Origin: a virus
DNA: 64,000 nt
Virus record (IMG/VR): IMGVR_UViG_3300025138_000016
Strand: one strand, 5' to 3'
Both the position numbers and the translations under genes were made by a program. This document shows positions 29,040 through 63,999 of this stretch, piece after piece. How positions within the stretch are numbered: position 1 is the first letter of the stretch; each line of letters begins with the position of its first letter. The notes below the pieces were generated by a model. The model had not been told where the DNA came from. It ran no database searches and saw only the letters and a list, made by a program, of their open reading frames with translations.

Positions 29040-30365
29040 TTACATAATGTTGTTAACAAGTACTCTTCTGTAGTATACGTTAGAATCTTTGTTCATCGCT
29101 CCAAGTCCTACGCCTGTTCCTTCTGCAAAAGGATTCGCAACTACGCCGTAACGAGTTTTAAAACCGATTTTAGGTTGGAAAGTCTGCTCACCAACGGCTC
29201 TCACCATTTGTAGCGGTACGTAAGGGCAGTAGAATATACCAGCATCAAATGCTGAAGATCCTTTATATCCTAATGTGTAATAGTTACCAGTAGTATATGG
29301 ATCGATATAAACTCTATATCTGCCGTTTAGAACACCAGCAAAAGTATTGCCAGTATCATCAACTTGTAGGTTGTTTGAGTTCAACGCAGGAGTGTAGTCC
29401 AATACGCCAGCCATTTGTAAAGCAGAAGCTACGTCTGAAGAAGTAATAAGAACATTACCTTTCCCTCTACGAGTATCTTTTGCAATTTGGTTAGCATCTC
29501 TTTCGATTTGGAACATTAATCCTTTGAACTTCTCAACTGACCATCTACCGTTTGAATCGGTATCAAGATCAAATGTACCAGCAGTAGTAGTGTCAGTCGT
29601 GGCACCTTGCTTAGCAACAATATTGATTGTTCTGATGATTTCTCTGTTAATTTCAGCTAAAATTTCTGTTGAAAGAATATTAGCTAATTCTGTTTCAGCG
29701 TCTAGACCATGGATAGCTCTTAAATCTTGAGCAAGTTCCATAGTATATTCAGCTTTCAGCGCTCTTGAACCAGCAGTAACTGATACTTTCTCAATTGAGA
29801 AAGCCATTTCTGGGAATGCAACGTTAGATGCATTACCTAAAGCTTCAGCTTGGTTAGTTGGCATACCGTCAGCAAAGTTATAAACACCCGCTTCAGCATT
29901 GTTTGCGCTTCCAGGAACACTACCAACGTTTTTGTCACCAAGTGTATTAGCATTGGCAGCAACAGTCGAGAATGCAGTATCAGCTTCGTTATAGAAAGCT
30001 TCAGTTGCAGAGTTAGACTGGTTAGTATACTTAGATCTCATCGCGAAGATAAGTCCAGTTGGTCCTGACATAGGCTGAACACCACACATGTCATAAGCTA
30101 CTAGGTTAGGCATTGCTCTTCTTACGAGGCTGATTAATACAGGATCGTAATTATCAATGTCTGCGCCAGTTGCGTTAGTCGGTGTATGAGTCGCCTCACT
30201 GAGAAGTGATTGACTAGAATATGTGCTTCCTTCTCTCAAAGCAATTTCTGTATTTTCTAAAAGTTGAGCTGTAACTGCACGCTTATGAGTATCTGTGATC
30301 GCTGTAAGATCGTCGTGCTCAAGAATTGGCTGCCACTTCTCAACTAAATTAGTTCTAAGGTCCAT
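29040..30365 (-). CDS. gp23: major capsid protein (gp23)
   Basis: DPVLISLVRRAMPNL..GVQPMSGPTGLIFAMRS..RALKAEY..FQPKIGFKTRYG. Confidence 0.99.
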   Translation of the reverse strand: MDLRTNLVEKWQPILEHDDLTAITDTHKRAVTAQLLENTEIALREGSTYSSQSLLSEATHTPTNATGADIDNYDPVLISLVRRAMPNLVAYDMCGVQPMSGPTGLIFAMRSKYTNQSNSATEAFYNEADTAFSTVAANANTLGDKNVGSVPGSANNAEAGVYNFADGMPTNQAEALGNASNVAFPEMAFSIEKVSVTAGSRALKAEYTMELAQDLRAIHGLDAETELANILSTEILAEINREIIRTINIVAKQGATTDTTTAGTFDLDTDSNGRWSVEKFKGLMFQIERDANQIAKDTRRGKGNVLITSSDVASALQMAGVLDYTPALNSNNLQVDDTGNTFAGVLNGRYRVYIDPYTTGNYYTLGYKGSSAFDAGIFYCPYVPLQMVRAVGEQTFQPKIGFKTRYGVVANPFAEGTGVGLGAMNKDSNVYYRRVLVNNIM

Positions 30366-35495: not shown

Positions 35496-37556
35496 TTAAA
35501 ATTTACCAACTACTTCTGAGAACTCTACTCCACTTCGTACTGCTACAAAGTTTAATTGAATAAAGTTAATAGATCTTGCAGGTTTAACGTAAATGTCTCC
35601 GATGAATTCATTTCTGTCTATGACTTCACCTGTGTTATTAGAAGTATCACATACGACTCTATAGTCAAATATGCCTCTTCTTCCCTGTATATCTCTCAAG
35701 AACGGCTCTACTAGGTTCACAAACTGTGATCTTGTAAACTCATCATTGAATTCAAACAACGTAAACTTAGAAGCTGTAGAGATTGCTTTCTCTAATACTA
35801 TGAATAGTCTTCTAACATTTATTCTGTCGAATGCTGATGGCTTAGCAAGTAACGTTTTGTCACCGAAAAGCACTGTGCCCTGACCTGGGAATGCAACAAC
35901 TGGGTTAATACCATTCTTATAAAGAAGATCTCTGAAAGCTACTCTCGGATTGAAAGATAACTTAACAACGTTCTTTATTTGACCTCTGTTGAATCCACCT
36001 GGTGAGAACCATGCATCTCTTTCTGCATCTGTTCTTGCGCATAAGCCGGCTATGTCTCCACTTAATGGTACATATCTATATACATCACCGAACTTATCGT
36101 ACTGATATTTATAACCACTATCTAGCACACCGTAAGATGAACTTCTAACTGCGTTTCTGAATTCGATAACGTTATCGGTAGCAGTAGATGGTGATGTTAC
36201 ACCAACTGTGTCTGCTCTATCTGGCGAACCAAATACGATACAATCTTTTCTTACTTCACAAATATTGTCGATAATGTAATTTAAAATTCCTTCTCCGTGC
36301 GTTCCACCTTTAGCTTTACCAGATAATAGTAGACTTACATCTACGTCTGCAGCGTCTGAGAACATATCATATCCAACAGCTACATCTCCCATTGAGATAG
36401 CGCTTTCTGAATTACCGTCTAAACCTCCGCCGAATGCGAAATTGTATGGCTTAGTTGATGATAATGCTGTTCTTGTTGCTGATGTACCTGTATAAGATGC
36501 AGCAGGATGATTAACGAAGTATATCCAGCTTGAACCATTGTTAATTACATTATAGTAATACATTGATTCGCCTGACTCATTCTTAGCGTCAGTACCTCTA
36601 GATAATGATTCCCATTTCTCTATAATTACTTCTGGTGTACCTGTTATATCTCCATCCTCATCTACTACAACTACGTGTAACTCATCACCGACACCGCTTT
36701 TGCTAGTTGCAAATGATGAAGTGCCTGGGGCACTATCGAAGCTATTGAAATATTTCCAATATCTTCTAATGATTGTTTCTTCAACGTTTGTTGAAAGTGT
36801 GTAACGTGAGTGCAATTGGATGTTAGCTTTAAGCGAACTTACGCTTCCATCTAATGCTTGTGCTGTTCCATTACTTGGAATAGACTTGATTGATAACTTA
36901 ACTTCACCAATAGATGAATTACCAGCTTCGACTAGATCGCCAACTTGAAGTTGAGCGGCTAATGCGTCATAAGCTGTCTCTAATGCTGTGTTAGTTACTG
37001 ATGCGTCTTCACCTGTTAAGGTTAATACTGCTACGTTCGAACCGACTGTGAATGCTAAGCTAGAAGTTGATTTAACATCTGCTGATGAATCAATATCTAC
37101 ATTGCTGCTCCATGCAGCTGCGCTATCACAAACTTCTACTCTTAAACCATTACCTTTAACACCAGCGTATTTACCCACACAAATATGATTTGCGTTAGCA
37201 GTATAACTACCAGCGTCAAACGTTTCCATGTTTTTGATTAACACACCATCAGTATTAGCTGAGGTATTGGCTACTCCAGTAGCGTTTCGTGCAGCACTAG
37301 ACACGGTTCTGACAACGTATAGTTTATTGCCATAGTTTAAAAAATTTGATGCTGTAAAAAATGTCTCGAAGTTATCACTTGTTGGCTCACCGAAACGCGA
37401 TACTAAAGATGTTTCACTATCTACTAGTACTCTTTGTTCGGCAGGTCCCCAATTAAATACACCCGCTAATCCACCTTCTGTTGTGGATACAGCTGGCACG
37501 ACCGTTGTAAGATCGATCTCGCTTACATTTACACCAGGACTGACTTGAAATGCCAT
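35496..37556 (-). CDS. gp18: tail sheath protein (gp18)
   Basis: SPGVNVSEIDLT..WFSPGGFNRG..FDRINVRRLF..KPARSINFIQLNFVAVR. Confidence 0.98.
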   Translation of the reverse strand: MAFQVSPGVNVSEIDLTTVVPAVSTTEGGLAGVFNWGPAEQRVLVDSETSLVSRFGEPTSDNFETFFTASNFLNYGNKLYVVRTVSSAARNATGVANTSANTDGVLIKNMETFDAGSYTANANHICVGKYAGVKGNGLRVEVCDSAAAWSSNVDIDSSADVKSTSSLAFTVGSNVAVLTLTGEDASVTNTALETAYDALAAQLQVGDLVEAGNSSIGEVKLSIKSIPSNGTAQALDGSVSSLKANIQLHSRYTLSTNVEETIIRRYWKYFNSFDSAPGTSSFATSKSGVGDELHVVVVDEDGDITGTPEVIIEKWESLSRGTDAKNESGESMYYYNVINNGSSWIYFVNHPAASYTGTSATRTALSSTKPYNFAFGGGLDGNSESAISMGDVAVGYDMFSDAADVDVSLLLSGKAKGGTHGEGILNYIIDNICEVRKDCIVFGSPDRADTVGVTSPSTATDNVIEFRNAVRSSSYGVLDSGYKYQYDKFGDVYRYVPLSGDIAGLCARTDAERDAWFSPGGFNRGQIKNVVKLSFNPRVAFRDLLYKNGINPVVAFPGQGTVLFGDKTLLAKPSAFDRINVRRLFIVLEKAISTASKFTLFEFNDEFTRSQFVNLVEPFLRDIQGRRGIFDYRVVCDTSNNTGEVIDRNEFIGDIYVKPARSINFIQLNFVAVRSGVEFSEVVGKF

Positions 37557-54761: not shown

Positions 54762-57700
54762 TTATGCAACTCTCAGCCATAGTTTAACTGTGCTTTCTAC
54801 ACTAGTACTAGCCATAATAGTATCACCTGAGAACTGTCCTGTAAACTGATTACTAAATGTACTTGTATACTGAGGACCTGGAGTCGATCTAGAATAGGTT
54901 CCATCTGAATAACTTGGTCCACCAGTAGCTCTAGCATAGCCTATTGCAAAGTTTGGTCCAACTACTAGTCTAGCATACTGACCATCTGTGTAACCTGGTC
55001 CAGGAGTAGTTCTAGCGTAGCCTACTGCATAGTTAGGTCCTGGTCTACTTCTAGTATATTGACCGTCTGAGTAGCTAGGTCCTGGTGTAGTTCTAGCATA
55101 GTTAGTTGTATACTGTGGTCCTGGTGTTACTCTAGTATAGTTACCATCTGAGTAGCTAGGTCCAGGAGTAGTTCTAGCAAAGTTAACTACGTAGTTAGGT
55201 CCTACAATTAATCTTGTATATTGACCATCTGAGTAGTTAGGTCCAGGTGTTGATCTAGCATAACCTACTGCATAGTTAGGACCTGGTCTGCTTCTTGTAT
55301 ACTGACCATCAGAGAATGTTACACCTGGTGTTGATCTTGTGTACTGTGCAGTAAATTGTCTTAAGAACGATCTACCATAACCAGCAGAGTAAACTCTTAC
55401 GAAGCCTCTAGCATATGCTCCTGTAAATTGTCTGTTGAATGCTCTTGAATAACCAGCTGAGAATTGTCTAGCAAATGCTCTTGAATACTGACCATAATAG
55501 GCTCTAGCAAACGCTCTACCATATCCTGCTGAATATACTCTAGTAAACTGTCTAGCATATTGACCAGCGTATTGCCTAGCAAATGCTCTTCCATATCCTG
55601 CTGAGTAGACTCTAGTAAATTGTCTAGCATATGCACCGTTATAAACTCTTCCGAATGATCTTCCATATCCTGCTGAGTAGACTCTAGTAAATTGTCTAGC
55701 ATATGCTGCTGAATATACTCTTCCGAACGATCTAGTATAACTAGCTGAATAAACTCTAGTAAATTGTCTAGCATATGCACCGTTATAAACTCTTCCGAAT
55801 GATCTATTATAATTAGCTGAGTAAACTCTACCAAACGATCTTCCATAAGCGCCAGCATATACTCTGCCATAGTTAACAGCATAAGCTGGCCCAGGCCTGC
55901 TTCTACCATAGTTTACAGCATAAGCTGGTCCAGGTCTTGATCTAGCATAGTTAACAGTATAGTTAGGTCCTGGTCTACTTCTTGCGTAGTTGCCGGTATA
56001 TACTCTACCATAGTTAACTGTATACTGTGCTGAATAAACTCTACCATAGTTTACTGTATAAGATCCGTAATAGATTCTTCCAAAGGATCTTCCATAAGAT
56101 ACACCATAATTTGGTCCAGGTCTTGATCTACCGTAGTTACCAGCATATAGTCTACCGTAGTTAACTGCATATGAACCTGAATAAGTTCTACCATAGTTAC
56201 CGTAATAAACTCTACCATAGTTAACAGCATAGTTTGGTCCATTATATTGAATGCCAGGTAAAGGTCCCCTAGCATATTGAGGTCCAAAGAAGTTAGAGCC
56301 ATCACCACCATTAATAGGTGAAGGTGATTGCCATGGATAGTTTCTTGAGAAAACTCCACCATAGTTAGTACTTGGAAAAGAGTTATTAAACTGTCTTGTA
56401 TAACTTACACCATAAGCTGGTCCAGGTCTTGCTCTGTTATAAGCCGGCCCGCCTCTTGATCTACCATATGATACGCCGTAGTTTGGTCCGCCTCTTGATC
56501 TAGCATAGCTACCGTAATAAACTCTACCGTAGTTAACAACATAGTTTGAAGTATAATTTGGTCCAGGTCTTGATCTACCGTATGCTACACCATAAGCTGG
56601 TCCAGGTCTTGACCTACCATAACTTACACCATAAGCTGGTCCTGGTCTACTTCTTCCGTAGTTACCTGCATATACTCTTCCGAAAGCTCTTCCGTATGCT
56701 GCTGAATATACTCTACCGTAGTTAGTTGCATATGCACCATAGTATACTCTACCATAGTTAACAGCATAAGCTGGCCCAGGTCTGCTTCTTGCGTAGTTAC
56801 CGTCTGAATAACCTGGTCCTGGTCTTGATCTAGCATAAGCTACATCATAGTTAGGACCTGGTCTACTTCTAGTATAGTTACCATCTGAGTAGTTAGGTCC
56901 AGGTGTTGATCTAGAATAGCCTACTGCATAGTTAGGTCCTGGTCTTGATCTGGCATAGTTACCATCACTATAGTTAGGTCCTGGTCTGCTTCTTGCGTAG
57001 TTAACAGTATAGCTTGGTCCTGGTCTACTTCTAGTATAGTTACCATCTGAGTAGTTAGGTCCAGGTGTTGATCTAGCATAGTTAACAGTATAGTTAGGTC
57101 CCGGTCTGCTTCTTGTATATTGGCCATCTGAGTAGTTAGGTCCAGGTGTTGATCTAGCATAGTTAACAGTATAACTTGGACCTGGTCTAGTTCTTGAATA
57201 CTGACCGTCTGAATAATTTGGTCCTGGTGTCGCTCTTGCATAACCTACTGTATAGTTAGGTCCTACAATTAGTCTAGAATAGTTACCATCTGAGTAATTA
57301 GGTCCAGGTGTTGATCTAGCGTAGTTAACAGTATAGTTAGGACCAGTAGTAGTTCTTGCATATTGACCATTAAATACTCTCTGGAATTGTCTTGCATATT
57401 GACCAGCATATTGTCTAGCAAACGCTCTAGTATATTGCGCTGAGAATACTCTAGTAAACTGTCTAGCATATTGACCGTTAAATTGTCTCTGGAATGATCT
57501 TCCGTATCCTGCTGAGAATGATCTAGCGAACTGTCTAGCATATTCACCAGAAAATGATCTAGCAAATGATCTTCCATACCCTGCTGTAAATGATCTAGCA
57601 AACTGCCTAGCATATTGACCAGCAAATTGTCTAGCAAATGCTCTTGAATAGTCTGCTGTAAATGATCTATTAAATGCTCTGGCGTATTGACCAGTAAACT

Positions 57701-58595
57701 GTCTAGTAAATGATCTTGTATAGTCAGCTGTAAATGCTCTAGCAAATTGTCTAGAATACTGTGCTGAATATACTCTGGTAAACTGTCTTGAGAAGTTACC
57801 AGTAAATTGTTGTGAGTACTGCTGAGATTGAACATCAGATAAACTATTTTCTATAGCATTTGATACCTGTAACCATGTTCCTGTTCCTGGGGCAGCAGTT
57901 TGTAGCTTATAAGTACCTACTCCAGTAGCTACTATTCTATTTCTTAATCTTTGTGTGAGAGTTTTAATCTCAGTATTATTCATCTCATTAACTGATGGTG
58001 TTGATGCATGTGCAGTTGCTTTCAAAGGTCTATATTCAGTTGGTGAAGTACCTGATGCAATCTTTCTCCATAGTTTATATGTAGTTGCTGCTGATTCACC
58101 AGTAGCTACTGTATCAGTAAAGGTGCCTTTATCCTGCCATGTACCACCAGATGGAGGAGATACTCCTAAAAAGTATTGCCCTGTTGCGTAACTAGATGTA
58201 TTTGCTATCTTTGCAATTAGGTGAGACATTACTGATGCATTTAAATCAGTGTCGTCTTGCTCTTCTATACCTTTGGATGCATCCCACTGAAGAGGTCTTA
58301 CAAGACCGCTCTCTGAATGTGAAGCAATATTTTGATAAAGTGTAGTAGTAACAGAGTTAGTAGCTCCAGTAGCTGGATGTGTTCCTACTGTTTCTGTTCT
58401 TCTCGTATCAACAAAAGTACCCACTGATGTACCTGTTGAAAAGCTTATATCACCTGTGCCTGTGCCTGTAGCGAAATCAGCCAGTATGATATCTGCCATG
58501 TAATCCATTTCGGCACTAGACATGCTCTGTAAGCCAGAGAAATTGGTTGTATTCGGTGTACCCGAACTAGTTTTAATTCTTAAAGGATTTGCCAA
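54762..58595 (-). CDS. 1277 aa Tyr/Phe/Arg/Gly repeat protein, predicted giant hairpin fibre
   Basis: TTG start with GGGAG RBS; about 259 aa non-repetitive N-terminus; residues 260-1258 built from aromatic-led 4-, 5- and 9-mers. Confidence 0.9.
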   Translation of the reverse strand: MANPLRIKTSSGTPNTTNFSGLQSMSSAEMDYMADIILADFATGTGTGDISFSTGTSVGTFVDTRRTETVGTHPATGATNSVTTTLYQNIASHSESGLVRPLQWDASKGIEEQDDTDLNASVMSHLIAKIANTSSYATGQYFLGVSPPSGGTWQDKGTFTDTVATGESAATTYKLWRKIASGTSPTEYRPLKATAHASTPSVNEMNNTEIKTLTQRLRNRIVATGVGTYKLQTAAPGTGTWLQVSNAIENSLSDVQSQQYSQQFTGNFSRQFTRVYSAQYSRQFARAFTADYTRSFTRQFTGQYARAFNRSFTADYSRAFARQFAGQYARQFARSFTAGYGRSFARSFSGEYARQFARSFSAGYGRSFQRQFNGQYARQFTRVFSAQYTRAFARQYAGQYARQFQRVFNGQYARTTTGPNYTVNYARSTPGPNYSDGNYSRLIVGPNYTVGYARATPGPNYSDGQYSRTRPGPSYTVNYARSTPGPNYSDGQYTRSRPGPNYTVNYARSTPGPNYSDGNYTRSRPGPSYTVNYARSRPGPNYSDGNYARSRPGPNYAVGYSRSTPGPNYSDGNYTRSRPGPNYDVAYARSRPGPGYSDGNYARSRPGPAYAVNYGRVYYGAYATNYGRVYSAAYGRAFGRVYAGNYGRSRPGPAYGVSYGRSRPGPAYGVAYGRSRPGPNYTSNYVVNYGRVYYGSYARSRGGPNYGVSYGRSRGGPAYNRARPGPAYGVSYTRQFNNSFPSTNYGGVFSRNYPWQSPSPINGGDGSNFFGPQYARGPLPGIQYNGPNYAVNYGRVYYGNYGRTYSGSYAVNYGRLYAGNYGRSRPGPNYGVSYGRSFGRIYYGSYTVNYGRVYSAQYTVNYGRVYTGNYARSRPGPNYTVNYARSRPGPAYAVNYGRSRPGPAYAVNYGRVYAGAYGRSFGRVYSANYNRSFGRVYNGAYARQFTRVYSASYTRSFGRVYSAAYARQFTRVYSAGYGRSFGRVYNGAYARQFTRVYSAGYGRAFARQYAGQYARQFTRVYSAGYGRAFARAYYGQYSRAFARQFSAGYSRAFNRQFTGAYARGFVRVYSAGYGRSFLRQFTAQYTRSTPGVTFSDGQYTRSRPGPNYAVGYARSTPGPNYSDGQYTRLIVGPNYVVNFARTTPGPSYSDGNYTRVTPGPQYTTNYARTTPGPSYSDGQYTRSRPGPNYAVGYARTTPGPGYTDGQYARLVVGPNFAIGYARATGGPSYSDGTYSRSTPGPQYTSTFSNQFTGQFSGDTIMASTSVESTVKLWLRVA
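54822..57818 (-). repeat. coding tandem repeats with mirror-complementary peptide arrangement
   Basis: Blocks of 12 A-units, 15 B-units, mixed core, NGGDG, mixed core, 15 A-units, 12 B-units (A=[YF]xRx[YF]x[GA]x, B=YxRxxxGPx). Confidence 0.92.
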
Positions 58596-58655
58596 GGATC
58601 AATTCTCCCGAATGGACAGTATAACTGCAGTGTTATTGAAATTCTATGTGTTTAT

Positions 58656-61091
58656 TTATGCAATTCTTAACCACAAGGTCTTAGTATTTTCAGTATAATT
58701 TGAAGAAACTGTGAGGCCTGAATACTGTTTATTACGAGAACCAGCAAATTGATTGCTATAAGATGAAGCAAACTGTGAGCCAGGTGTTGATCTTGTATAT
58801 TGTCCAGTAAATTGTCCACGAATAAAGTTACCTGTATACTGAGGACCAGGTCTTGATCTAGCAAAGTTTACAGTATACTGTACTGACCTTGCATACGTAA
58901 CACTATAAGCACCAACAAATTGTCTAGCAAATTGACGCTGATAATCCCCTGAGAAAGATCTAGCATAATCAGCTGTATATACTCTTGTGTATTGAGTGAG
59001 GTATGTTGGTCCATTATAGTTAGGACCTACTGTGCTTCTAGTATATTGAGCTCTTGCATATAGACCAGCATACTGAGGTCCAGCAAATTGTCTACCATAA
59101 GCACCATAACTTCTAGAGCCTGCGAATGTTCTAGTATAAAATATTCGCGAATATGCCGGAGCATTTCTTGTTCTTGCATACTGTGCTGTATAGTTTCTTA
59201 AATAACTAACTGAATATGCAGGACCATCATATTGTGGACCAGCTACATCTCGAGTAAAGGTACTTATATACTGAGGTCCTGCTCTTGATCTTGCATATTG
59301 AGGACCATCATATTGTGGTCCTGGAGTTGATCTAGCATAAGCAGGACCATTAAAAGATAGAGAAGGCACAGATCTTGTATACTGTGGACCACCTGTAGCT
59401 CTAGAAAAGCTTCTAGAGAAGAATCTTGTATATTGTCCTCTTACAAAGTTTACTGGAATAGGCCCACGGTTATATGAGCCTCTAAAATATGCTCTTCCAT
59501 CACCACCATTTGCTTCGCTTTCTGGAACGTTATAATAGTAAACTGTTCTATAAAAGACTTGAGAAAAATCGAATCCTGGAGCTGTACCTGAATAAAGACC
59601 TGTGAACTGATTACCTGTTGAGTAATTTTGATCATATTGCCCTATGTAAGTTCTACCATACTGGCCAGCATAAAATCTTTGATAAGCCGCTCTTGTATAG
59701 TTTGCTGAGTATACTCTTGTATATTGTCTTTGATATTGCGCTGAATAATTTCTAGCATATTGAACTGAATAGTTATTAGTATATCGTCTAAGAAATGTCC
59801 TAGTATAATTAACAGTATAGTTTGGTCCGTCTGTTGATCTTGCATACTGACCGTAATAAACTAAAAGATATGCGACAGCATATGTAATGCCTCTTGAATA
59901 TGCGCCTGTGAAAGATACTGCATAGTTATCTCCCCTTGCATACTGTCTTTGAAATTGCGAGGAATATGTACGAGCATATTGACCTGCATATTGTCTAGTA
60001 AATGCTCTTTGAAATTGAGCACTAGCATATTGAGGTCCAGGAGTAGATCTTGCGTATGAGAGGCCTGCAACTACTCTTGTATATTGTGGACCATCATAGT
60101 TAGTACCAGCTACTCCTCTAGCAAAGTTAGATATATAACCTCTTGCAAAGCTACGTCCATAGCTACCAGCATATACTCTTTGGAATTGATCTGCATATTG
60201 TCTAGCAAATTGTCCTCTAGAATATTGATCACTAAATATTCTTTGGAATTGTCTAGCAAAGGTATTAGCATATTGTGCTGTATAGTTACCAGTATATTGA
60301 GTATTTTCAATATTAGGATTTCTGTCTGTAGCAGCTCCTCTTGCAACCCATGTACCTACACCAGGAATAGAAGTTTGAAATTTATATGTGCCGACGCCTG
60401 TTGCTACTATTCTATTTCTTAATCTAGCTACTAATGTCTGTATTTCTGTATCAGACATTTCTTGTAAGTTGGTAGTAGATTGTTTAAGTAGTTTAACTTG
60501 AGTAGGACTACTAGTATGAGATGTTTTTCTCCATAGCTTATAAGTAACTTTTTGATCTTCATCATTTGCGTTGTTAGTAACTTCATCAAAGAATTGATCT
60601 TGAGCTACCCAAGTACCACCAATGCTAGGTGCATTAACACTAACGTAATAAGATCCTGCAGCTGCATATGTTGAATTAGCTTTAGCTATATCATCTAAGC
60701 AAAGTTGCATTATAGTAGTGTTTAATTGAGTAGATGTTTGTTGTGCAACATGACCAGGATTAGATGTACCACCATGTGTAGCAGGTGTAATCATACTAGC
60801 TTCTGATAAAGAAGAAACGTTTTGTTTAAATATATAAGTAGTAGCACCAGCTGATCCTGAATAAGGATGCGATAAGAGTTCACCAGTTGCAAAATTATCT
60901 ACAAATGTACCAACACTAGTACCTGTTGAATTGATATTTAAATCTCCAACATGATCACCAGAGCCTGACTCTGTAGCGTACTTAGTGTTTATTAATTTAA
61001 CGGAATAGTCAAGCTCAGCATTTGTTGTGACTTGGACTCCATTATTATAAACCCCATTTGCATGTGTTCGCAACTTAAGGGGATTGCTCAT
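58656..61091 (-). CDS. 811 aa paralogue of the hairpin repeat protein
   Basis: Shares MxNPL, TGTSVGTFVD, YKLWRK, RLRNRIVATGVGTYK, central NGGDG and C-terminal LWLR(V/I)A with 54762-58595. Confidence 0.9.
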   Translation of the reverse strand: MSNPLKLRTHANGVYNNGVQVTTNAELDYSVKLINTKYATESGSGDHVGDLNINSTGTSVGTFVDNFATGELLSHPYSGSAGATTYIFKQNVSSLSEASMITPATHGGTSNPGHVAQQTSTQLNTTIMQLCLDDIAKANSTYAAAGSYYVSVNAPSIGGTWVAQDQFFDEVTNNANDEDQKVTYKLWRKTSHTSSPTQVKLLKQSTTNLQEMSDTEIQTLVARLRNRIVATGVGTYKFQTSIPGVGTWVARGAATDRNPNIENTQYTGNYTAQYANTFARQFQRIFSDQYSRGQFARQYADQFQRVYAGSYGRSFARGYISNFARGVAGTNYDGPQYTRVVAGLSYARSTPGPQYASAQFQRAFTRQYAGQYARTYSSQFQRQYARGDNYAVSFTGAYSRGITYAVAYLLVYYGQYARSTDGPNYTVNYTRTFLRRYTNNYSVQYARNYSAQYQRQYTRVYSANYTRAAYQRFYAGQYGRTYIGQYDQNYSTGNQFTGLYSGTAPGFDFSQVFYRTVYYYNVPESEANGGDGRAYFRGSYNRGPIPVNFVRGQYTRFFSRSFSRATGGPQYTRSVPSLSFNGPAYARSTPGPQYDGPQYARSRAGPQYISTFTRDVAGPQYDGPAYSVSYLRNYTAQYARTRNAPAYSRIFYTRTFAGSRSYGAYGRQFAGPQYAGLYARAQYTRSTVGPNYNGPTYLTQYTRVYTADYARSFSGDYQRQFARQFVGAYSVTYARSVQYTVNFARSRPGPQYTGNFIRGQFTGQYTRSTPGSQFASSYSNQFAGSRNKQYSGLTVSSNYTENTKTLWLRIA
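58713..60296 (-). repeat. degenerate coding repeats with mirror-complementary peptide arrangement
   Basis: Residues 266-793, NGGDG at 528-532; same unit types in a different order. Confidence 0.85.
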
Positions 61092-61101
61092 ATTTTATCC
61101 C

Positions 61102-63999
61102 CTAGGCCGGCCAGGCCACATCACCATTAGCGTAATATACTCTGAATGCGTTTCCGCCTTCATCTTTAATATCACTATGTATTGATAAGTCTCCTACTAC
61201 GTTAGCTGCTGCTTGTAAGTTTGTTGCGCTTGTTACTTTTAATGTACCTGTTTCTGTTTCACCAGTAACACTTACGTTAGCACCAGCAGTAATATTATTA
61301 TCTACTTGTGCTGTAGAAGATACATTTATAAAGCCAGTAATAGTTGTATTACCAGTACCTAAAGTTTTACCTACAGATACGTGCTGTGTAGTAGATATAT
61401 TACCACTAAAAGTACCTGTGTTAGCAGTTAATTTAAATCTCTTAGTTGTATCACCAAGTACCGCACCTGATGTATTAGATGCAGGTTTAACACCTGAAGA
61501 CGTTGATATAATGCCAGTAGTATTAATTGTATTAGCATTCAATACCCATCTATTATTTACATCACCTAATGAAACTGTATTGCCATTAGGAATAAATCCT
61601 ACTGTTGAGTTACCAACAGGTGCAAGTACAAATAAATGCTCTGTACCTGAGTTATCACCAATAGTAGTATTACCATCTAATGTTGTCTCTGCTGATACAG
61701 ATAGTGTAGTCATTGTGGCTACATTTAATGATAGCGCGTTATCACTTGCAAGTGATGTTGTACCTTGTACTGTGAAATTACCAGCAACAGTAACATTATT
61801 ACTGAATGCTGTATTTGGTGCAACGTCCATACCAGTATCAGTGATGTATAATTCACCGCTTACTAGATTAGCTGTTGCGCCTGTATGAATTATAGGTGAG
61901 GTTAAAGTACCATGCGCTAATGAGCCTGTTATAGACGTATCGCCGCCAACATTTAATTTCTGACCTATTTGTACTGACTTAGCTATACCAACACCACCTG
62001 AAGTAGTTATTGATCCAGTTGTAGTACTAGTACTATTAGCAGTGTTATCTACATCTATTTTACCATCAACACCTAAGTGACTTGATACGTTAGCTGTTCC
62101 AGTAATCTCTACATCGCCAGTAATTGTAGCACCAGATGCTGAGACTGTTAAACCGTCTGCTACTGTTAATGAATCACCTAATACGACGTTACCTGATACA
62201 TTAGCAAGACCAGTTATATCTGCTCCACCATTAAGATCAGATAATCCTGAAACCTCTAGTCCGCTTGATAGAGTAGCTTTACCTGTAACACCAAGAGTAC
62301 TACCAACAGTAGCTGATGTTCCTATACCAGCTCCGCCGACTGTAGTTAAACTAGCGGCTGCGATAGCACCGTCTGCAGCTATAGCCCCTGAATCAGATAT
62401 TACAGCATTTACTGTACTATTACCAATAGTTATTTTTGAATGTGTTATTGCGACATTACCAGCTGTAATATTATCTTGAGCTGTTATTGCGCCTTGTACG
62501 TTTAATGTACTATTTAAATCTGTTGCACCATTAGCCTGTAAAGTACCTGTTACATTTGCACTTGCTGCTTTTACATTACCAGCAAATACTGCAGCATTAG
62601 CTGTAGTTGTTCCGTCTATTGAAACTGTATTACTTAATGTAGTTGATCCAAGCACTGATAGAGTACCATCAGTATCAACGGCTGTTTTTGTTATGGCTGT
62701 ATTAACAGTTGAATTACCAACTGTTATTTTTGAAGTTGAGAGGTTAACATTAGCGCCAACATTCATTTGCGTTGTTGCGTTTGCTATACCTGTTGTTATT
62801 AGACCTGATTTAGCTCTTAATAATCCACCAACGTTAGCTGCACCTGATAATAAAGTAGTTGTACCTACTGATAGATTATCAGTTATAGTAACTGTATCAC
62901 CAGCTGTTACATTACCTGTTAGTGTTGTTAAACCTGATGCATTTATATCAGCTGCTTTTAATCCCCATCTAGCATCATTTAATCCTAATGTCTGTGTATT
63001 AGCTTCTGGATTAATATTTGAAGATACTTCAGCTATAAAGTTAACTGAATCTGAGTTAGCATTACCTAAATCAACATCTGCATTAAGAGTTGTTTTGCCT
63101 GCAATAGTAAGAGTACTACTACCACCTATTGCTCCTGTCACATCGGCTTTACCGCCTATTGACGTATTCCCTGTAACTGCTAGAGTATTTGATACACTCA
63201 CAGTATTACTATTAAGGTTCCATCTAGCGTCTGTTAGACCAAGGGACAATGCGTTAGAAACGGGGTTTAAGCTTGAATCAGACTCTGAATTAAACGTTAC
63301 TGTATCACTATTAGCTGAACCAAGTACTACGTTTGCATTAAACTGTGACTCATCTGAATCAACAGTTACTAAGTTACCAGCCAATGTTACAGAGGTTGAT
63401 GTACCATCTCCATTTATATCAATAGCAGATAAAGTTGAATTAGACTTAAGCGTTATATCGTTAGCAGTAAGAGTAGTATTATCATAATCAGCTGTTAATG
63501 TTGTACCATCCATATCAACTGTTGTAGAGTTAATATCTAATGTTGTACCAGTAACATGAACTGCTGTTGAATTTATTGAAGTATTAGTTGATGATGAATT
63601 AATATGTACATTAGAACTAACTTGTAGCAAAGTACCATTAGCAAATACGTTTGCTGTTTCTAGATCAACGAATGATCCTTTAATGGTAACAGAATTAACA
63701 GTAGCATTAGAGCTAACATTAACAGTACCGTTTGATAGATTACTGTTTGATGTAACGTAGAGAGTGTTTGATACTTGTACATTACCACCTCTTACATCAT
63801 TAAATACAGCAATTGTATTAGATTGTAATATACCGCCTGTGCTATTAACCCAAGCTTCAGTATCTTGATTGTAAACGTTTGATGTTATTACAACGTTACC
63901 AGATGTAGAACCACCAACAGTATTTTGCTGAGCAGTAACAACTGTCTCAGATAAATCAAATAGTATCTGATTGGTTTTGTCTACCCAAGCACCAAAGGT
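61102..63999 (-). CDS. long fibre-like virion protein (5' end beyond the window)
   Basis: Frame appears open from 63630 to the window edge (TFGAWVDKTNQILFDLSETVVT...); T/S/N/G-rich; LG....RW repeats; GSITTSGGVGIAK motif. Confidence 0.8.
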   Translation of the reverse strand, partial: TFGAWVDKTNQILFDLSETVVTAQQNTVGGSTSGNVVITSNVYNQDTEAWVNSTGGILQSNTIAVFNDVRGGNVQVSNTLYVTSNSNLSNGTVNVSSNATVNSVTIKGSFVDLETANVFANGTLLQVSSNVHINSSSTNTSINSTAVHVTGTTLDINSTTVDMDGTTLTADYDNTTLTANDITLKSNSTLSAIDINGDGTSTSVTLAGNLVTVDSDESQFNANVVLGSANSDTVTFNSESDSSLNPVSNALSLGLTDARWNLNSNTVSVSNTLAVTGNTSIGGKADVTGAIGGSSTLTIAGKTTLNADVDLGNANSDSVNFIAEVSSNINPEANTQTLGLNDARWGLKAADINASGLTTLTGNVTAGDTVTITDNLSVGTTTLLSGAANVGGLLRAKSGLITTGIANATTQMNVGANVNLSTSKITVGNSTVNTAITKTAVDTDGTLSVLGSTTLSNTVSIDGTTTANAAVFAGNVKAASANVTGTLQANGATDLNSTLNVQGAITAQDNITAGNVAITHSKITIGNSTVNAVISDSGAIAADGAIAAASLTTVGGAGIGTSATVGSTLGVTGKATLSSGLEVSGLSDLNGGADITGLANVSGNVVLGDSLTVADGLTVSASGATITGDVEITGTANVSSHLGVDGKIDVDNTANSTSTTTGSITTSGGVGIAKSVQIGQKLNVGGDTSITGSLAHGTLTSPIIHTGATANLVSGELYITDTGMDVAPNTAFSNNVTVAGNFTVQGTTSLASDNALSLNVATMTTLSVSAETTLDGNTTIGDNSGTEHLFVLAPVGNSTVGFIPNGNTVSLGDVNNRWVLNANTINTTGIISTSSGVKPASNTSGAVLGDTTKRFKLTANTGTFSGNISTTQHVSVGKTLGTGNTTITGFINVSSTAQVDNNITAGANVSVTGETETGTLKVTSATNLQAAANVVGDLSIHSDIKDEGGNAFRVYYANGDVAWPA

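What the first reader, a model, noticed from the sequence alone, without database searches (positions are those of the whole stretch)
58713..60296. The paralogue repeats the pairing code with a different unit order
The 811 aa protein has a shorter and far less regular repeat region, yet its arms still match unit for unit around NGGDG (residues 528-532; region midpoint ~530). Thirteen 9-mers each face an 8-mer (e.g. YTRV-YSAN vs YARSTPGPQ, YARSTDGPN vs YLRN-YTAQ, FQRV-YAGS vs FARSRPGPQ). A third rule appears: [YF]xGPx 5-mers face [YF][QT]Rx (YDGPQ/YQRQ twice, YNGPT/FQRA, FAGPQ/FQRQ, YDGPA/YTRT). This also holds for YNGPN/YTRQ in the long protein. A few middle pairs (YGA, FAGSRS) are irregular. 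This internal replicate makes coincidence unlikely and suggests two fibres of about 2:1 length.
Basis: partly seen in the sequence, partly recalled or inferred. Interest (0 to 1): 0.86.

Follow-up and report, generated by a model that had tools for sequence, protein, structure and literature searches.

The report
Second self-pairing fold-back phage fibre
An 811-residue tail-region protein of an uncultured marine T4-like phage has two 264-residue repeat arms that match rung for rung when one is read backwards, by the same rules as its longer neighbour, so the chain very probably folds back into a long thin paired ribbon of a design not described before.

Summary
The gene at 58656-61091 (minus strand) encodes a 262-residue base domain, two 264-residue repeat arms around NGGDG (528-532), and a closing C-terminal strand. 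With one arm reversed and no gaps, 58 rungs line up. Thirteen 9-mers face an Arg 4-mer plus a non-Arg 4-mer, and six GP 5-mers face Arg 4-mers.

A pairing matrix learned only on the 1277-residue paralogue scores this fold at 32.3, against 7.8±5.2 for shuffled unit order (0 of 2000). The reverse test gives z=12.8. Only one register scores positive. Length alone ("9 faces 8") is not significant. The signal is in which 4-mers face the 9-mers.

Orthologues keep the complementarity while changing the unit order, including a swap of 9-mers and 4-mers between arms. Family members range from 304 to 1578 residues, and short ones usually have their turn motif at the exact midpoint. AlphaFold docks the C-terminal strand into the base domain with confidence. 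The shaft itself is modelled only weakly, as a hairpin.

Best reading: a fold-back, Tyr/Arg-rich, strongly cationic β-ribbon fibre on an MABP-like β-prism base. Oligomeric state, virion location and receptor are unknown. No family library or solved structure matches. The scan had already found this design in the adjacent gene.

The parts
58656..61091 (-). Whole gene for the 811-aa fold-back fibre protein (P0001)
   Evidence: ORF list and translation. 73 homologues were found, the closest 98% identical on a 155-kb contig.
60306..61091 (-). Base domain, residues 1-262. It has three helix-plus-hairpin repeats and an MABP-like beta-prism fold. It is the most conserved part of the protein.
   Evidence: AF2 pLDDT 70-93. 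It is 42% identical to the paralogue's base, E 8e-58, and an internal repeat is visible. VIA Z 5.1-5.3 here and 5.0-7.1 in the short relative, to MABP / MACPF C-terminal prisms. Most invariant columns of the alignment lie here.
59595..60296 (-). Arm 1 (outgoing), residues 266-499. Mostly [YF]xRx and [YF]xxx 4-mers, with four 9-mers and one GP 5-mer.
   Evidence: Tokenisation and pairing.
59448..59594 (-). Irregular tip, residues 500-548, containing NGGDG (nucleotides 59496-59510) and YNRGPIP. This is the turn of the hairpin.
   Evidence: It sits at the exact midpoint, 264/264 residues. Its size varies from 0 to 45 rungs among the orthologues that use these unit types.
58725..59447 (-). Arm 2 (returning), residues 549-789. 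Rich in YxRSxPGPx 9-mers (nine, plus YNRGPIPVN in the tip) and [YF]xGPx 5-mers (5).
   Evidence: Each 9-mer or 5-mer faces the predicted Arg / non-Arg 4-mers of arm 1.
58659..58724 (-). C-terminal linker and closing strand (residues 790-811, ...TKTLWLRIA), which completes the third repeat of the base domain.
   Evidence: AF2 pLDDT 77-95 despite a shaft at about 25, and pLDDT 85-97 in the relative P0104. The LW[LIV]R[TIV]A ending is conserved in family members from 304 to 1578 aa.
54762..58595 (-). Adjacent paralogue of 1277 aa (P0002), with the same architecture and arms of about 500 residues.
   Evidence: It was the source of the pairing matrix.
61102..63999 (-). Upstream fibre-like gene (over 965 aa, running off the window). 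Its stop codon lies 10 nt before the start of the 811-aa gene.
   Evidence: Weak PHROG tail-fibre hits. The same gene order, 988 / 791 / 1499 aa, is seen in a relative.

Best explanation
The 811-aa protein is a virion fibre made of one chain that runs out and comes back.

A beta-prism base domain (residues 1-262) is left open in its third repeat. From there the chain runs out for 264 residues as arm 1, turns in an irregular tip around NGGDG, returns for 264 residues as arm 2, and closes the base with its last strand (TLWLRIA).

The two arms lie antiparallel as a beta-ribbon of about 58 four-residue rungs, at most about 80-85 nm long. The register is set by a knob-and-hole rule on the face that carries the aromatic residues. 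About one position-3 arginine occurs per rung. An Arg unit ([YF]xRx, or the YxRS half of a 9-mer) faces a unit without Arg (Yx[GA]x). Each bulged, one-residue-longer unit (the xPGPx half of a 9-mer, or a [YF]xGPx 5-mer) faces an Arg 4-mer.

Because the unit order is aperiodic, only one register fits, and the arms do not fit those of the co-encoded 1277-aa paralogue.

What is shown: the complementarity, its cross-validation between paralogues, its conservation through changes in unit order, the central turn, and the return of the C-terminus to the base.

What is inferred: beta-ribbon geometry, Tyr/Arg stacking, attachment to the baseplate or tail through the conserved base, and host-surface contact by the variable tip and the strongly cationic shaft. 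The oligomeric state is open.
For: 1. Ungapped reversed pairing of 58 rungs with 31 rule-conforming 9-mer/5-mer contacts and no 9-mer facing a 9-mer. 77% of rungs have exactly one position-3 Arg, against 25-62% at other shifts.

2. Cross-validation between paralogues works in both directions (0/2000; z=12.8). The parallel-order control fails.

3. There is a single positive register.

4. Most orthologues that use these unit types are self-complementary, with z mostly 4-9 and equal arms, although their unit order differs. P0007 has 9-mers in arm 1 and 4-mers in arm 2 exactly where P0001 has the reverse. Cognate arms score 33.5 against 6.3±9.8 for non-cognate arms.

5. Arm lengths co-vary: 264/264, 263/265, 233/227, 205/210 and 504/496. 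In short relatives the turn motif lies midway between the conserved GTW and LW anchors. Of 20 such rows, 11 are within 2 residues and r=0.90.

6. Full-length family members run from 304 to 1578 aa, all with the same base domain and the same last strand.

7. AF2 gives the C-terminal strand pLDDT 77-95 and 85-97 in P0104. There the shaft is modelled as two strand pairs symmetric about the YYGGRNYG turn.

8. The base resembles MABP-type beta-prisms (Z 7.1, 6.9, 5.4, 5.0). [quoted passage not shown]

9. The gene lies in the baseplate/fibre module of a T4-like phage, upstream of gp13-gp23 homologues, and the synteny is conserved.

10. The shaft is 21% Tyr+Phe and 11% Arg, with one Lys and no His, Cys, Trp or Met. 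Net charge is about +44.
Against: - No confident 3D model of the shaft was obtained. pLDDT is about 25 in P0001 and 43-50 in P0104.
- Several more divergent orthologues (P0031, P0033-P0036; also P0025 and P0028, z 1-2) give no signal with my tokeniser, because their units are too irregular to tell.
- Two short relatives have unequal arms around the aligned turn motif: P0041 at 114/92 and P0080 at 64/116.
- Three Arg:Arg rungs and one mismatched 9-mer half occur in P0001.
- The starting matrix for learning already assumed that 9-mers avoid 9-mers.
- Mirror complementarity by itself cannot tell an intramolecular hairpin from an antiparallel pair of chains.
- There is no evidence that the protein is in virions. 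The phage is uncultured.
- The beta-prism similarity is only Z 5-7.
Confidence: 0.68

Rival explanations
1. The arms pair between chains rather than within one chain. Two or more fully extended chains lie antiparallel, with arm 1 of one against arm 2 of the other. This would give a fibre about twice as long, with base domains at both ends, and the C-terminal strand swapped into the partner's base.
For: The mirror complementarity is equally satisfied by an antiparallel homodimer. A monomer AF2 run cannot test this.
Against: The centre is not self-complementary repeat. It is an irregular Gly/Pro-rich segment whose size varies from 0 to 45 rungs between orthologues, like a loop or tip. Short members have a conserved tight-turn motif, YYGGRNYG, exactly at the midpoint. 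Shafts can be as short as about 40 residues. AF2 closes each chain's own base with its own last strand at pLDDT up to 97.
Confidence: 0.08
2. It is a conventional parallel homotrimeric fibre shaft in which all three chains run base to tip. The mirror order of unit types would be a by-product of how the repeats expanded, with no physical pairing of the arms.
For: Nearly all solved phage fibres are parallel trimers (general knowledge). The shaft could not be modelled with confidence.
Against: Tandem duplication makes direct order, not mirror order. There are no DNA inverted repeats. The parallel-order control scores no better than shuffles. Orthologues change both arms together, including polarity swaps. 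The turn lies at the exact midpoint over a four-fold range of arm lengths. The C-terminal strand belongs to the N-terminal domain, which a one-way shaft 80 nm long could not allow.
Confidence: 0.04
3. The fold-back ribbon is real, but it is not a host-recognition fibre. It could be, for example, a polycationic strut or tether inside the baseplate or tail, a length-setting or bracing element, or a decoration that binds polyanions non-specifically.
For: Net charge is about +44, with Arg almost the only charged residue. No receptor-binding domain family was detected. Two length classes are kept in relatives: 791 and 1499 aa.
Against: The conservation pattern is that of receptor-binding fibres, with the base most conserved and the tip most variable, and with enlarged irregular tips in some orthologues. 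Shaft length varies from 40 to 1300 residues across the family, which fits poorly with a ruler for a fixed structure. The gene sits among fibre-like genes.
Confidence: 0.15

Closest known systems
Needle domain of the T4 long-tail-fibre tip, gp37 (six-stranded antiparallel needle; Bartual et al. 2010 as cited in PMC9659904)
   Same: A T4-type phage fibre in which each chain runs to the tip and returns. The shaft is therefore antiparallel beta-structure, and the receptor-binding part lies at the turn.
   Different: The gp37 needle covers roughly 100 residues per chain, is an obligate intertwined trimer, and is held by His-bound iron (my recollection of Bartual et al. 2010). Here each arm is 264 residues (about 500 in the paralogue). 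There is no His at all and no sequence or profile similarity. A unit-by-unit complementarity rule sets the register. The oligomeric state is unknown.
MABP beta-prism domain with inserted hyper-extended beta-hairpin (MPEG1 / perforin-2 P2 domain; related prisms in Mp2Ba1 and Plu-MACPF)
   Same: The base-domain model aligns best to these prisms: Z 7.1 for 8b6v_A, 6.9 for 2qp2_A, 5.4 for 3tow_A and 5.0 for 6sb1_A, over 110-118 residues that include the C-terminal strand. [quoted passage not shown]
   Different: Z 5-7 is only middling, and Pfam gives no hit. Whether the hairpin leaves the prism at the equivalent loop could not be checked. The MPEG1 hairpin is short and not repetitive. Here it is 40 to about 1300 residues of 4/5/9-residue units. 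The context is a phage tail module, not a pore-forming protein.
Rod-like single-chain beta-sheet proteins without a conventional core (SasG G5-E repeats, OspA single-layer sheet); from memory
   Same: They work alike: a thin, elongated, monomer-built beta-structure that reaches a long way with little mass. G5 domains appear among the weak structural matches to the tip region (Z 2.0-2.2).
   Different: There is no homology. Those are strings of small three-stranded domains running one way, not one continuous two-arm hairpin with a pairing rule.
Hypothetical 3347-aa protein of Phage C48C1 (OQ984149, CDS0201)
   Same: It is the only relative in 50,697 deposited phage genomes. It has a homologous base domain, [YF]xxx and YxRxRVSx repeats, and a C-terminal TYTLYVRVA strand. 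It lies in the tail-fibre module next to an annotated tail assembly chaperone.
   Different: It is four times longer, uses another set of units, and has several globular insertions in its second half. It is unannotated and unstudied.

Membership tests
T4 gp37-type fold-back needle | Sequence or profile similarity to gp37 distal domains | tested here: not met
   No Pfam, PHROG or NCBIfam hit for P0001. A profile search of all PDB chain sequences found nothing at E<=1.
T4 gp37-type fold-back needle | His-x-His iron-binding repeats in the needle | tested here: not met
   The 528-residue shaft contains no histidine.
T4 gp37-type fold-back needle | The chain reverses at the distal tip, so the shaft strands are antiparallel | tested here: met
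   Supported by mirror complementarity, the midpoint turn and the C-terminal strand docked in the base. This is shown by sequence logic and low-confidence models, not by a solved structure.
T4 gp37-type fold-back needle | Intertwined homotrimer | tested here: inconclusive
   The one computation that could address this, the three-copy run listed under Tried and rejected, gave no verdict. The oligomeric state is undetermined.
MABP beta-prism domain | Three-fold pseudo-symmetric beta-prism fold | tested here: inconclusive
   The best structural matches are MABP-type prisms. They stand 1.5-4 Z units above unrelated rows, but Z is only 5.0-7.1. Three sequence repeats of helix, hairpin and closing strand are visible.
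MABP beta-prism domain | Match to the Pfam family model | tested here: not met
   No Pfam family for P0001, P0002 or the 37 short relatives.
Collagen-like / Gly-X-Y triple helix (considered because of the PGP motifs) | Uninterrupted Gly every third residue | tested here: not met
   No run of three or more G-x-y triplets. Aromatic spacing is 4 (64 times), 9 (14 times) and 5 (12 times).
Annotated phage tail-fibre families (PHROGs) | Profile match to a tail-fibre PHROG | tested here: not met
   P0001 has no PHROG. P0002 has only an unknown-function PHROG at E 3.9e-4.

The most novel reading that the evidence does not exclude
These proteins embody a sequence-addressable peptide pairing code. A small alphabet of 4-, 5- and 9-residue beta-units has fixed partner rules: Arg knob against Gly/Ala hole, and PGP or GP bulge against an Arg unit. 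An aperiodic order of units then specifies one register and one partner, much as base order does in a nucleic-acid hairpin. This would let a single chain zip into a ribbon 80-165 nm long and about 1-2 nm thick. It would also keep two paralogous fibres in one cell from mispairing, and the rules could be reused to design orthogonal beta-ribbon nanomaterials.
Probability: 0.45. Interest if true: 0.93.

Novelty: categorically new. Interest (0 to 1): 0.82.

Why it matters
If the fold-back ribbon is real, it is a way of building a very long fibre from one hairpin, with about 530 residues for roughly 80 nm. I did not find this design in Pfam, PHROGs, NCBIfam, the PDB or the literature searched.

It would also be a rare natural case of register and partner specificity in beta-structure being written in a readable unit code. 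That code is validated here across two paralogues and roughly twenty orthologues.

The family is large, with 389 clusters at 50% identity, mostly from marine metagenomes. It is absent from cultured phages apart from one deposited genome. Such fibres may therefore be a common but unseen host-contact organ of abundant ocean myophages, probably too thin for negative-stain EM.

The rules are testable with peptides and could seed designs for orthogonal beta-zippers.

Tried and rejected
- **Three-copy complex of residues 412-650** (complex prediction): no verdict, score 0.00, own fold under pLDDT 50. This counts neither for nor against oligomerisation.
- **Foldseek against BFVD and PDB**: nothing at E<=0.001.
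- **Sequence libraries:** the PDB sequence profile search, Pfam, PHROGs and NCBIfam gave no family. The ESM Atlas search with the base domain gave only unnamed viral clusters at 0.85-0.87.
- **DNA searches:** blastn of the region against phage genomes found no match. DNA inverted repeats as a trivial cause of the mirror order: none; only diverged direct repeats of 60-88% identity.
- **Bare length rule** (a 9-mer faces any two 4-mers) as the test statistic: not significant in the short protein. I rejected it as the basis of the claim.
- **Loose regular expression for the turn motif** across the whole family: it hit ordinary repeat units. I replaced it with the aligned-column test.
- **Whole genome:** not held for this window.
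- **Literature searches** for a described family of this kind: nothing found.
- **T4 late promoter TATAAATA:** not enriched in the window, and absent near these genes. Only a CATAAATA overlaps the stop codon of the 811-aa gene.
Full report
**What is there**

The window carries the structural module of a T4-like myophage on the minus strand. PHROG profiles identify the major head protein (29040-30365), scaffold, portal, tail sheath (35496-37556), large terminase, and gp15-, gp14- and gp13-like proteins. Upstream of those lies a run of fibre-like genes.

The major head protein is 65-72% identical to those of Stenotrophomonas phage DLP_6, the OM43 phage Melnitz, Synechococcus phage S-SKS1 and the Pelagibacter myophages Mosig and HTVC008M. 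The phage is therefore an uncultured marine T4-like virus of unknown host. No whole genome is held for it.

The finding lies in the 811-aa ORF at 58656-61091 (P0001). Its start is 10 nt downstream of the stop of a fibre-like gene of more than 965 aa. Its stop is 60 nt upstream of a 1277-aa paralogue (P0002). The same order, 988 / 791 / 1499 aa, follows gp8 and a DUF4815 protein in a relative's contig.

**Checking the observation**

Splitting the repeat region at aromatic residues gives three kinds of unit:
- 4-mers, [YF]xRx ("R") or [YF]xxx without Arg ("n");
- 9-mers, YxRSxPGPx, counted as two rungs ("b" then "e");
- 5-mers, [YF]xGPx ("C").

NGGDG is at residues 528-532, and the repeat region extends 264 residues on either side of it.

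Reversing arm 2 and laying it on arm 1 without any gap gives 58 rungs: 13 b:n, 12 e:R, 6 C:R, 9 R:n, 8 n:n, 3 R:R and 1 e:n. There are no 9-mer:9-mer or 5-mer:5-mer contacts. The YNGPN/YTRQ pair in the long protein is also recovered.

**Is it more than chance?**

I learned a log-odds matrix of rung pairs on the long protein only. It gave b:n +1.6, e:R +1.8, C:R +1.7, R:R -5.3 and 9-mer:9-mer -3.6. I then scored the short protein with it.

| Test on the short protein | Score |
|---|---|
| Observed fold | 32.3 |
| Arm-2 units permuted | 7.8±5.2 (0 of 2000 reach it) |
| Arm 2 in parallel order | 8.3-13.3 |
| Blocks of six units shuffled | reach it 2 times in 1000 |
| Split point left free | 38.1 vs 4.7±3.6, arms 52/52 |

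The reverse experiment, with the matrix learned on the short protein and the long one scored, gives 108.4 against 8.5±7.8.

One qualification matters. The length rule alone (a 9-mer faces any two 4-mers) is not significant here (188 of 1000 shuffles). The information is in the identity and order of the facing 4-mers. The starting matrix used to seed the learning also assumed that 9-mers avoid 9-mers.

**Register and partner specificity**

Of 25 ungapped registers of the short protein only one scores positive: +24.3, against -42 to -133 for the rest. The regular long protein tolerates slips of three rungs with decaying score.

Arm 1 of the short protein against arm 2 of the long one scores 14, and the converse scores 0. 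Self-pairing scores 34 and 139. The aperiodic unit order thus fixes one register and keeps the two co-expressed paralogues apart.

**Evidence from relatives**

A word-indexed search found 73 relatives. An exhaustive HMMER search found 389 clusters at 50% identity, 247 of them at E<=1e-10.

Among orthologues that use the same unit types, most are self-complementary with z mostly 4-9 and equal arms, although their unit orders differ widely. The clearest case is P0007 (62% identical). In the distal third P0001 has 4-mers in arm 1 facing 9-mers in arm 2. P0007 has the reverse there, and every contact still obeys the rules. This is the protein counterpart of a compensatory base-pair change.

Over 17 proteins, cognate arms average 33.5 against 6.3±9.8 for non-cognate arms. 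When the cognate arm is not the top partner, the top partner is usually that of a close relative.

Arm lengths co-vary: 264/264, 263/265, 233/227, 205/210 and 504/496.

Negative or unclear cases:
- P0031 and P0033-P0036 (and P0025, P0028 at z 1-2) have units too irregular for my tokeniser and give z near 0.
- P0008 (669 aa) looks like a fusion of the short protein's first arm to the long protein's last arm, with no turn.

**Alphabet-free support for the fold-back**

Every full-length family member, from 304 to 1578 aa, keeps the same base domain and the same ending LW[LIV]R[TIV]A. The only thing that varies is a shaft of about 40 to 1300 residues between them.

Short members use other units (YxGx, YSGSRT) but share a tight-turn motif such as YYGGRNYG. 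In an alignment of 37 short members, 20 carry that motif at the aligned column. I counted residues from the invariant GTW of the base to the motif, and from the motif to the C-terminal LW. The two counts are equal within 2 residues in 11 rows and within 6 in 16 rows, for example 72/72, 40/40, 104/104 and 106/106. The correlation is r=0.90 over arms of 32-136 residues. The four rows that differ by more than 6 are P0041 (114/92), P0080 (64/116), P0125 (56/48) and P0167 (108/116).

**Structure prediction**

AF2 on P0001 with 24 sequences gives pLDDT 70-93 for residues 19-262 and 77-95 for residues 790-811, but about 25 for the shaft. The strands it draws in the shaft come in mirror-related pairs (248-282 with 774-809, 438-453 with 600-613). 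This is weak evidence only.

AF2 on the short relative P0104 (373 aa, 37 sequences) gives pTM 0.72, a base at pLDDT 92-98 and the last 24 residues at 85-97. Its shaft is drawn as E231-262 and E271-294, a turn at 295-301, then E302-325 and E332-371, at pLDDT 43-50.

So the return of the C-terminus into the base is predicted with confidence. The ribbon itself is only suggested.

**The base domain**

The two paralogues' bases are 42% identical (E 8e-58). A second BLAST segment exposes the internal repeat of helix, then G.Y...P..GTW hairpin. The strands TTYIFKQ, VTYKLWRK and the C-terminal KTLWLRIA look like the three closing strands of that repeat.

Exhaustive structural alignment puts MABP-type beta-prisms on top in both models: Z 7.1, 6.9, 5.4 and 5.0 for 8b6v_A, 2qp2_A, 3tow_A and 6sb1_A over 110-118 residues that include the C-terminal strand. 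Apart from a fifth MABP-type chain (6u23_A, MPEG-1, Z 3.5), the next row is at Z 2.8 (the same chains score Z 4.6-5.3). These values are middling, and Pfam sees nothing.

The comparison is still instructive. [quoted passage not shown] The phage family looks like that idea carried 10- to 100-fold further.

**How it most likely works**

The shaft is 21% Tyr+Phe and 11% Arg. It has one Lys and no His, Cys, Trp or Met, and a net charge of about +44 (about +106 in the long protein).

In a beta-strand, positions 1 and 3 of each 4-mer share a face. One face of the ribbon would therefore be a ladder of aromatic rings and position-3 residues. In the true register 77% of rungs carry exactly one position-3 Arg. 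At other shifts the figure is 25-62%.

I infer a knob-and-hole arrangement. An Arg lies over the Gly or Ala of the opposite strand, between Tyr rings. Two Arg would clash. The PGP, GP or DG units are one-residue bulges that are always capped by an Arg unit. This geometry is inference, not shown.

The strong preference for Arg over Lys in a 37% GC genome argues that the guanidinium group itself is needed.

**Function**

Several observations point to a fibre anchored by its base, with its tip, and perhaps its cationic shaft, touching the host envelope:
- its position in the baseplate/fibre module;
- a conserved base and a variable tip, from 0 to 45 irregular rungs, with enlarged tips in P0014-like orthologues;
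- the MABP analogy.

This is inferred. Virion location, copy number, oligomeric state and receptor are unknown.

**Comparison with what is known, and novelty**

[quoted passage not shown] There is no sequence similarity, no histidine, a far greater length, and a unit-level pairing rule that gp37 lacks.

No family library, solved structure or paper that I could search describes this family. Among 50,697 deposited phage genomes only Phage C48C1 has a relative, an unannotated 3347-aa protein.

The scan had already followed up the adjacent long gene twice with the same conclusion. This report adds:
- the independent replicate in the short protein, with cross-validation in both directions;
- the register and paralogue orthogonality;
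- the length series of the family, 304-1578 aa;
- the midpoint test in other unit alphabets;
- the MABP-like base;
- the caveat that unit length alone carries no signal.

Noticed in passing
P0008 (669 aa, ENA contig of 152 kb), relative of window 58656-61091 and 54762-58595: It looks like a fusion of the first arm of the short protein to the last 27-mer block and C-terminus of the long protein, joined at ...YGRS FLRQ YTAQ YTRSTPGPN..., with no turn region. It is either a natural deletion by recombination between the adjacent paralogues or an assembly collapse across the repeats.
   Followed up: partly
L001:11983-22026 (Phage C48C1, OQ984149, CDS0201): A 3347-aa relative with the same base domain and a TYTLYVRVA ending. 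It has YxRxRVSx 8-mers and [YF]xGN 4-mers, plus several non-repeat, probably globular, insertions in the second half. It is preceded by an annotated tail assembly chaperone.
   Followed up: partly
Family members P0150, P0186, P0108, P0101 (304-316 aa): These are minimal members. They consist of the base domain, about 5 rungs out, a YYGGRNYG-type turn, about 5 rungs back, and the closing strand. They are the best candidates for a first experimental structure.
   Followed up: partly
P0041 (454 aa) and P0080 (415 aa): Around the aligned turn motif their arms are unequal, 114/92 and 64/116 residues. Nearly all other short members are equal. The cause may be a second motif copy, a misalignment, or a real exception to the equal-arm rule.
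   Followed up: no
Pfam and PHROGs gave no hit for any of the three at E<=0.01. Their order (139 / 281 / 280 aa) is conserved after the fibre pair in a relative.
   Followed up: partly
window 58650-58665 (minus strand): CATAAATA overlaps the stop codon of the 811-aa gene, about 50 nt upstream of the TTG start of the long paralogue. That start is preceded by GGGAGA. The canonical T4 late-promoter box TATAAATA is not enriched in the window (8 matches against 11.6 expected).
   Followed up: partly
P0001 residues 141-191 and P0104 residues 123-167: Both models give a weak local structural match (Z 2.2-2.6, 15-28% identity over about 45 residues) to T4 gp11 (1el6_A) and to a Klebsiella phage KP1 baseplate-cup chain (9f4b_FD). 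This is far below significance, but it recurs in both models.
   Followed up: no
window 55397-55909, 56051-56362, 56921-57241, 57269-57835 (minus strand, other frames) and 60084-60422 (plus strand): ORFs of 103-188 aa lie nested inside the two repeat genes: four in other frames of the same strand within the long gene, one on the opposite strand within the short gene. They are most likely by-products of the low-complexity repeats, not genes.
   Followed up: no
P0014, P0015, P0016, P0019 (orthologues, 791-822 aa): The tip is enlarged to about 26-35 irregular rungs rich in Pro, Gly and Asp, in place of the NGGDG turn. This may be a small distal domain, as expected if the tip determines host range.
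   Followed up: no
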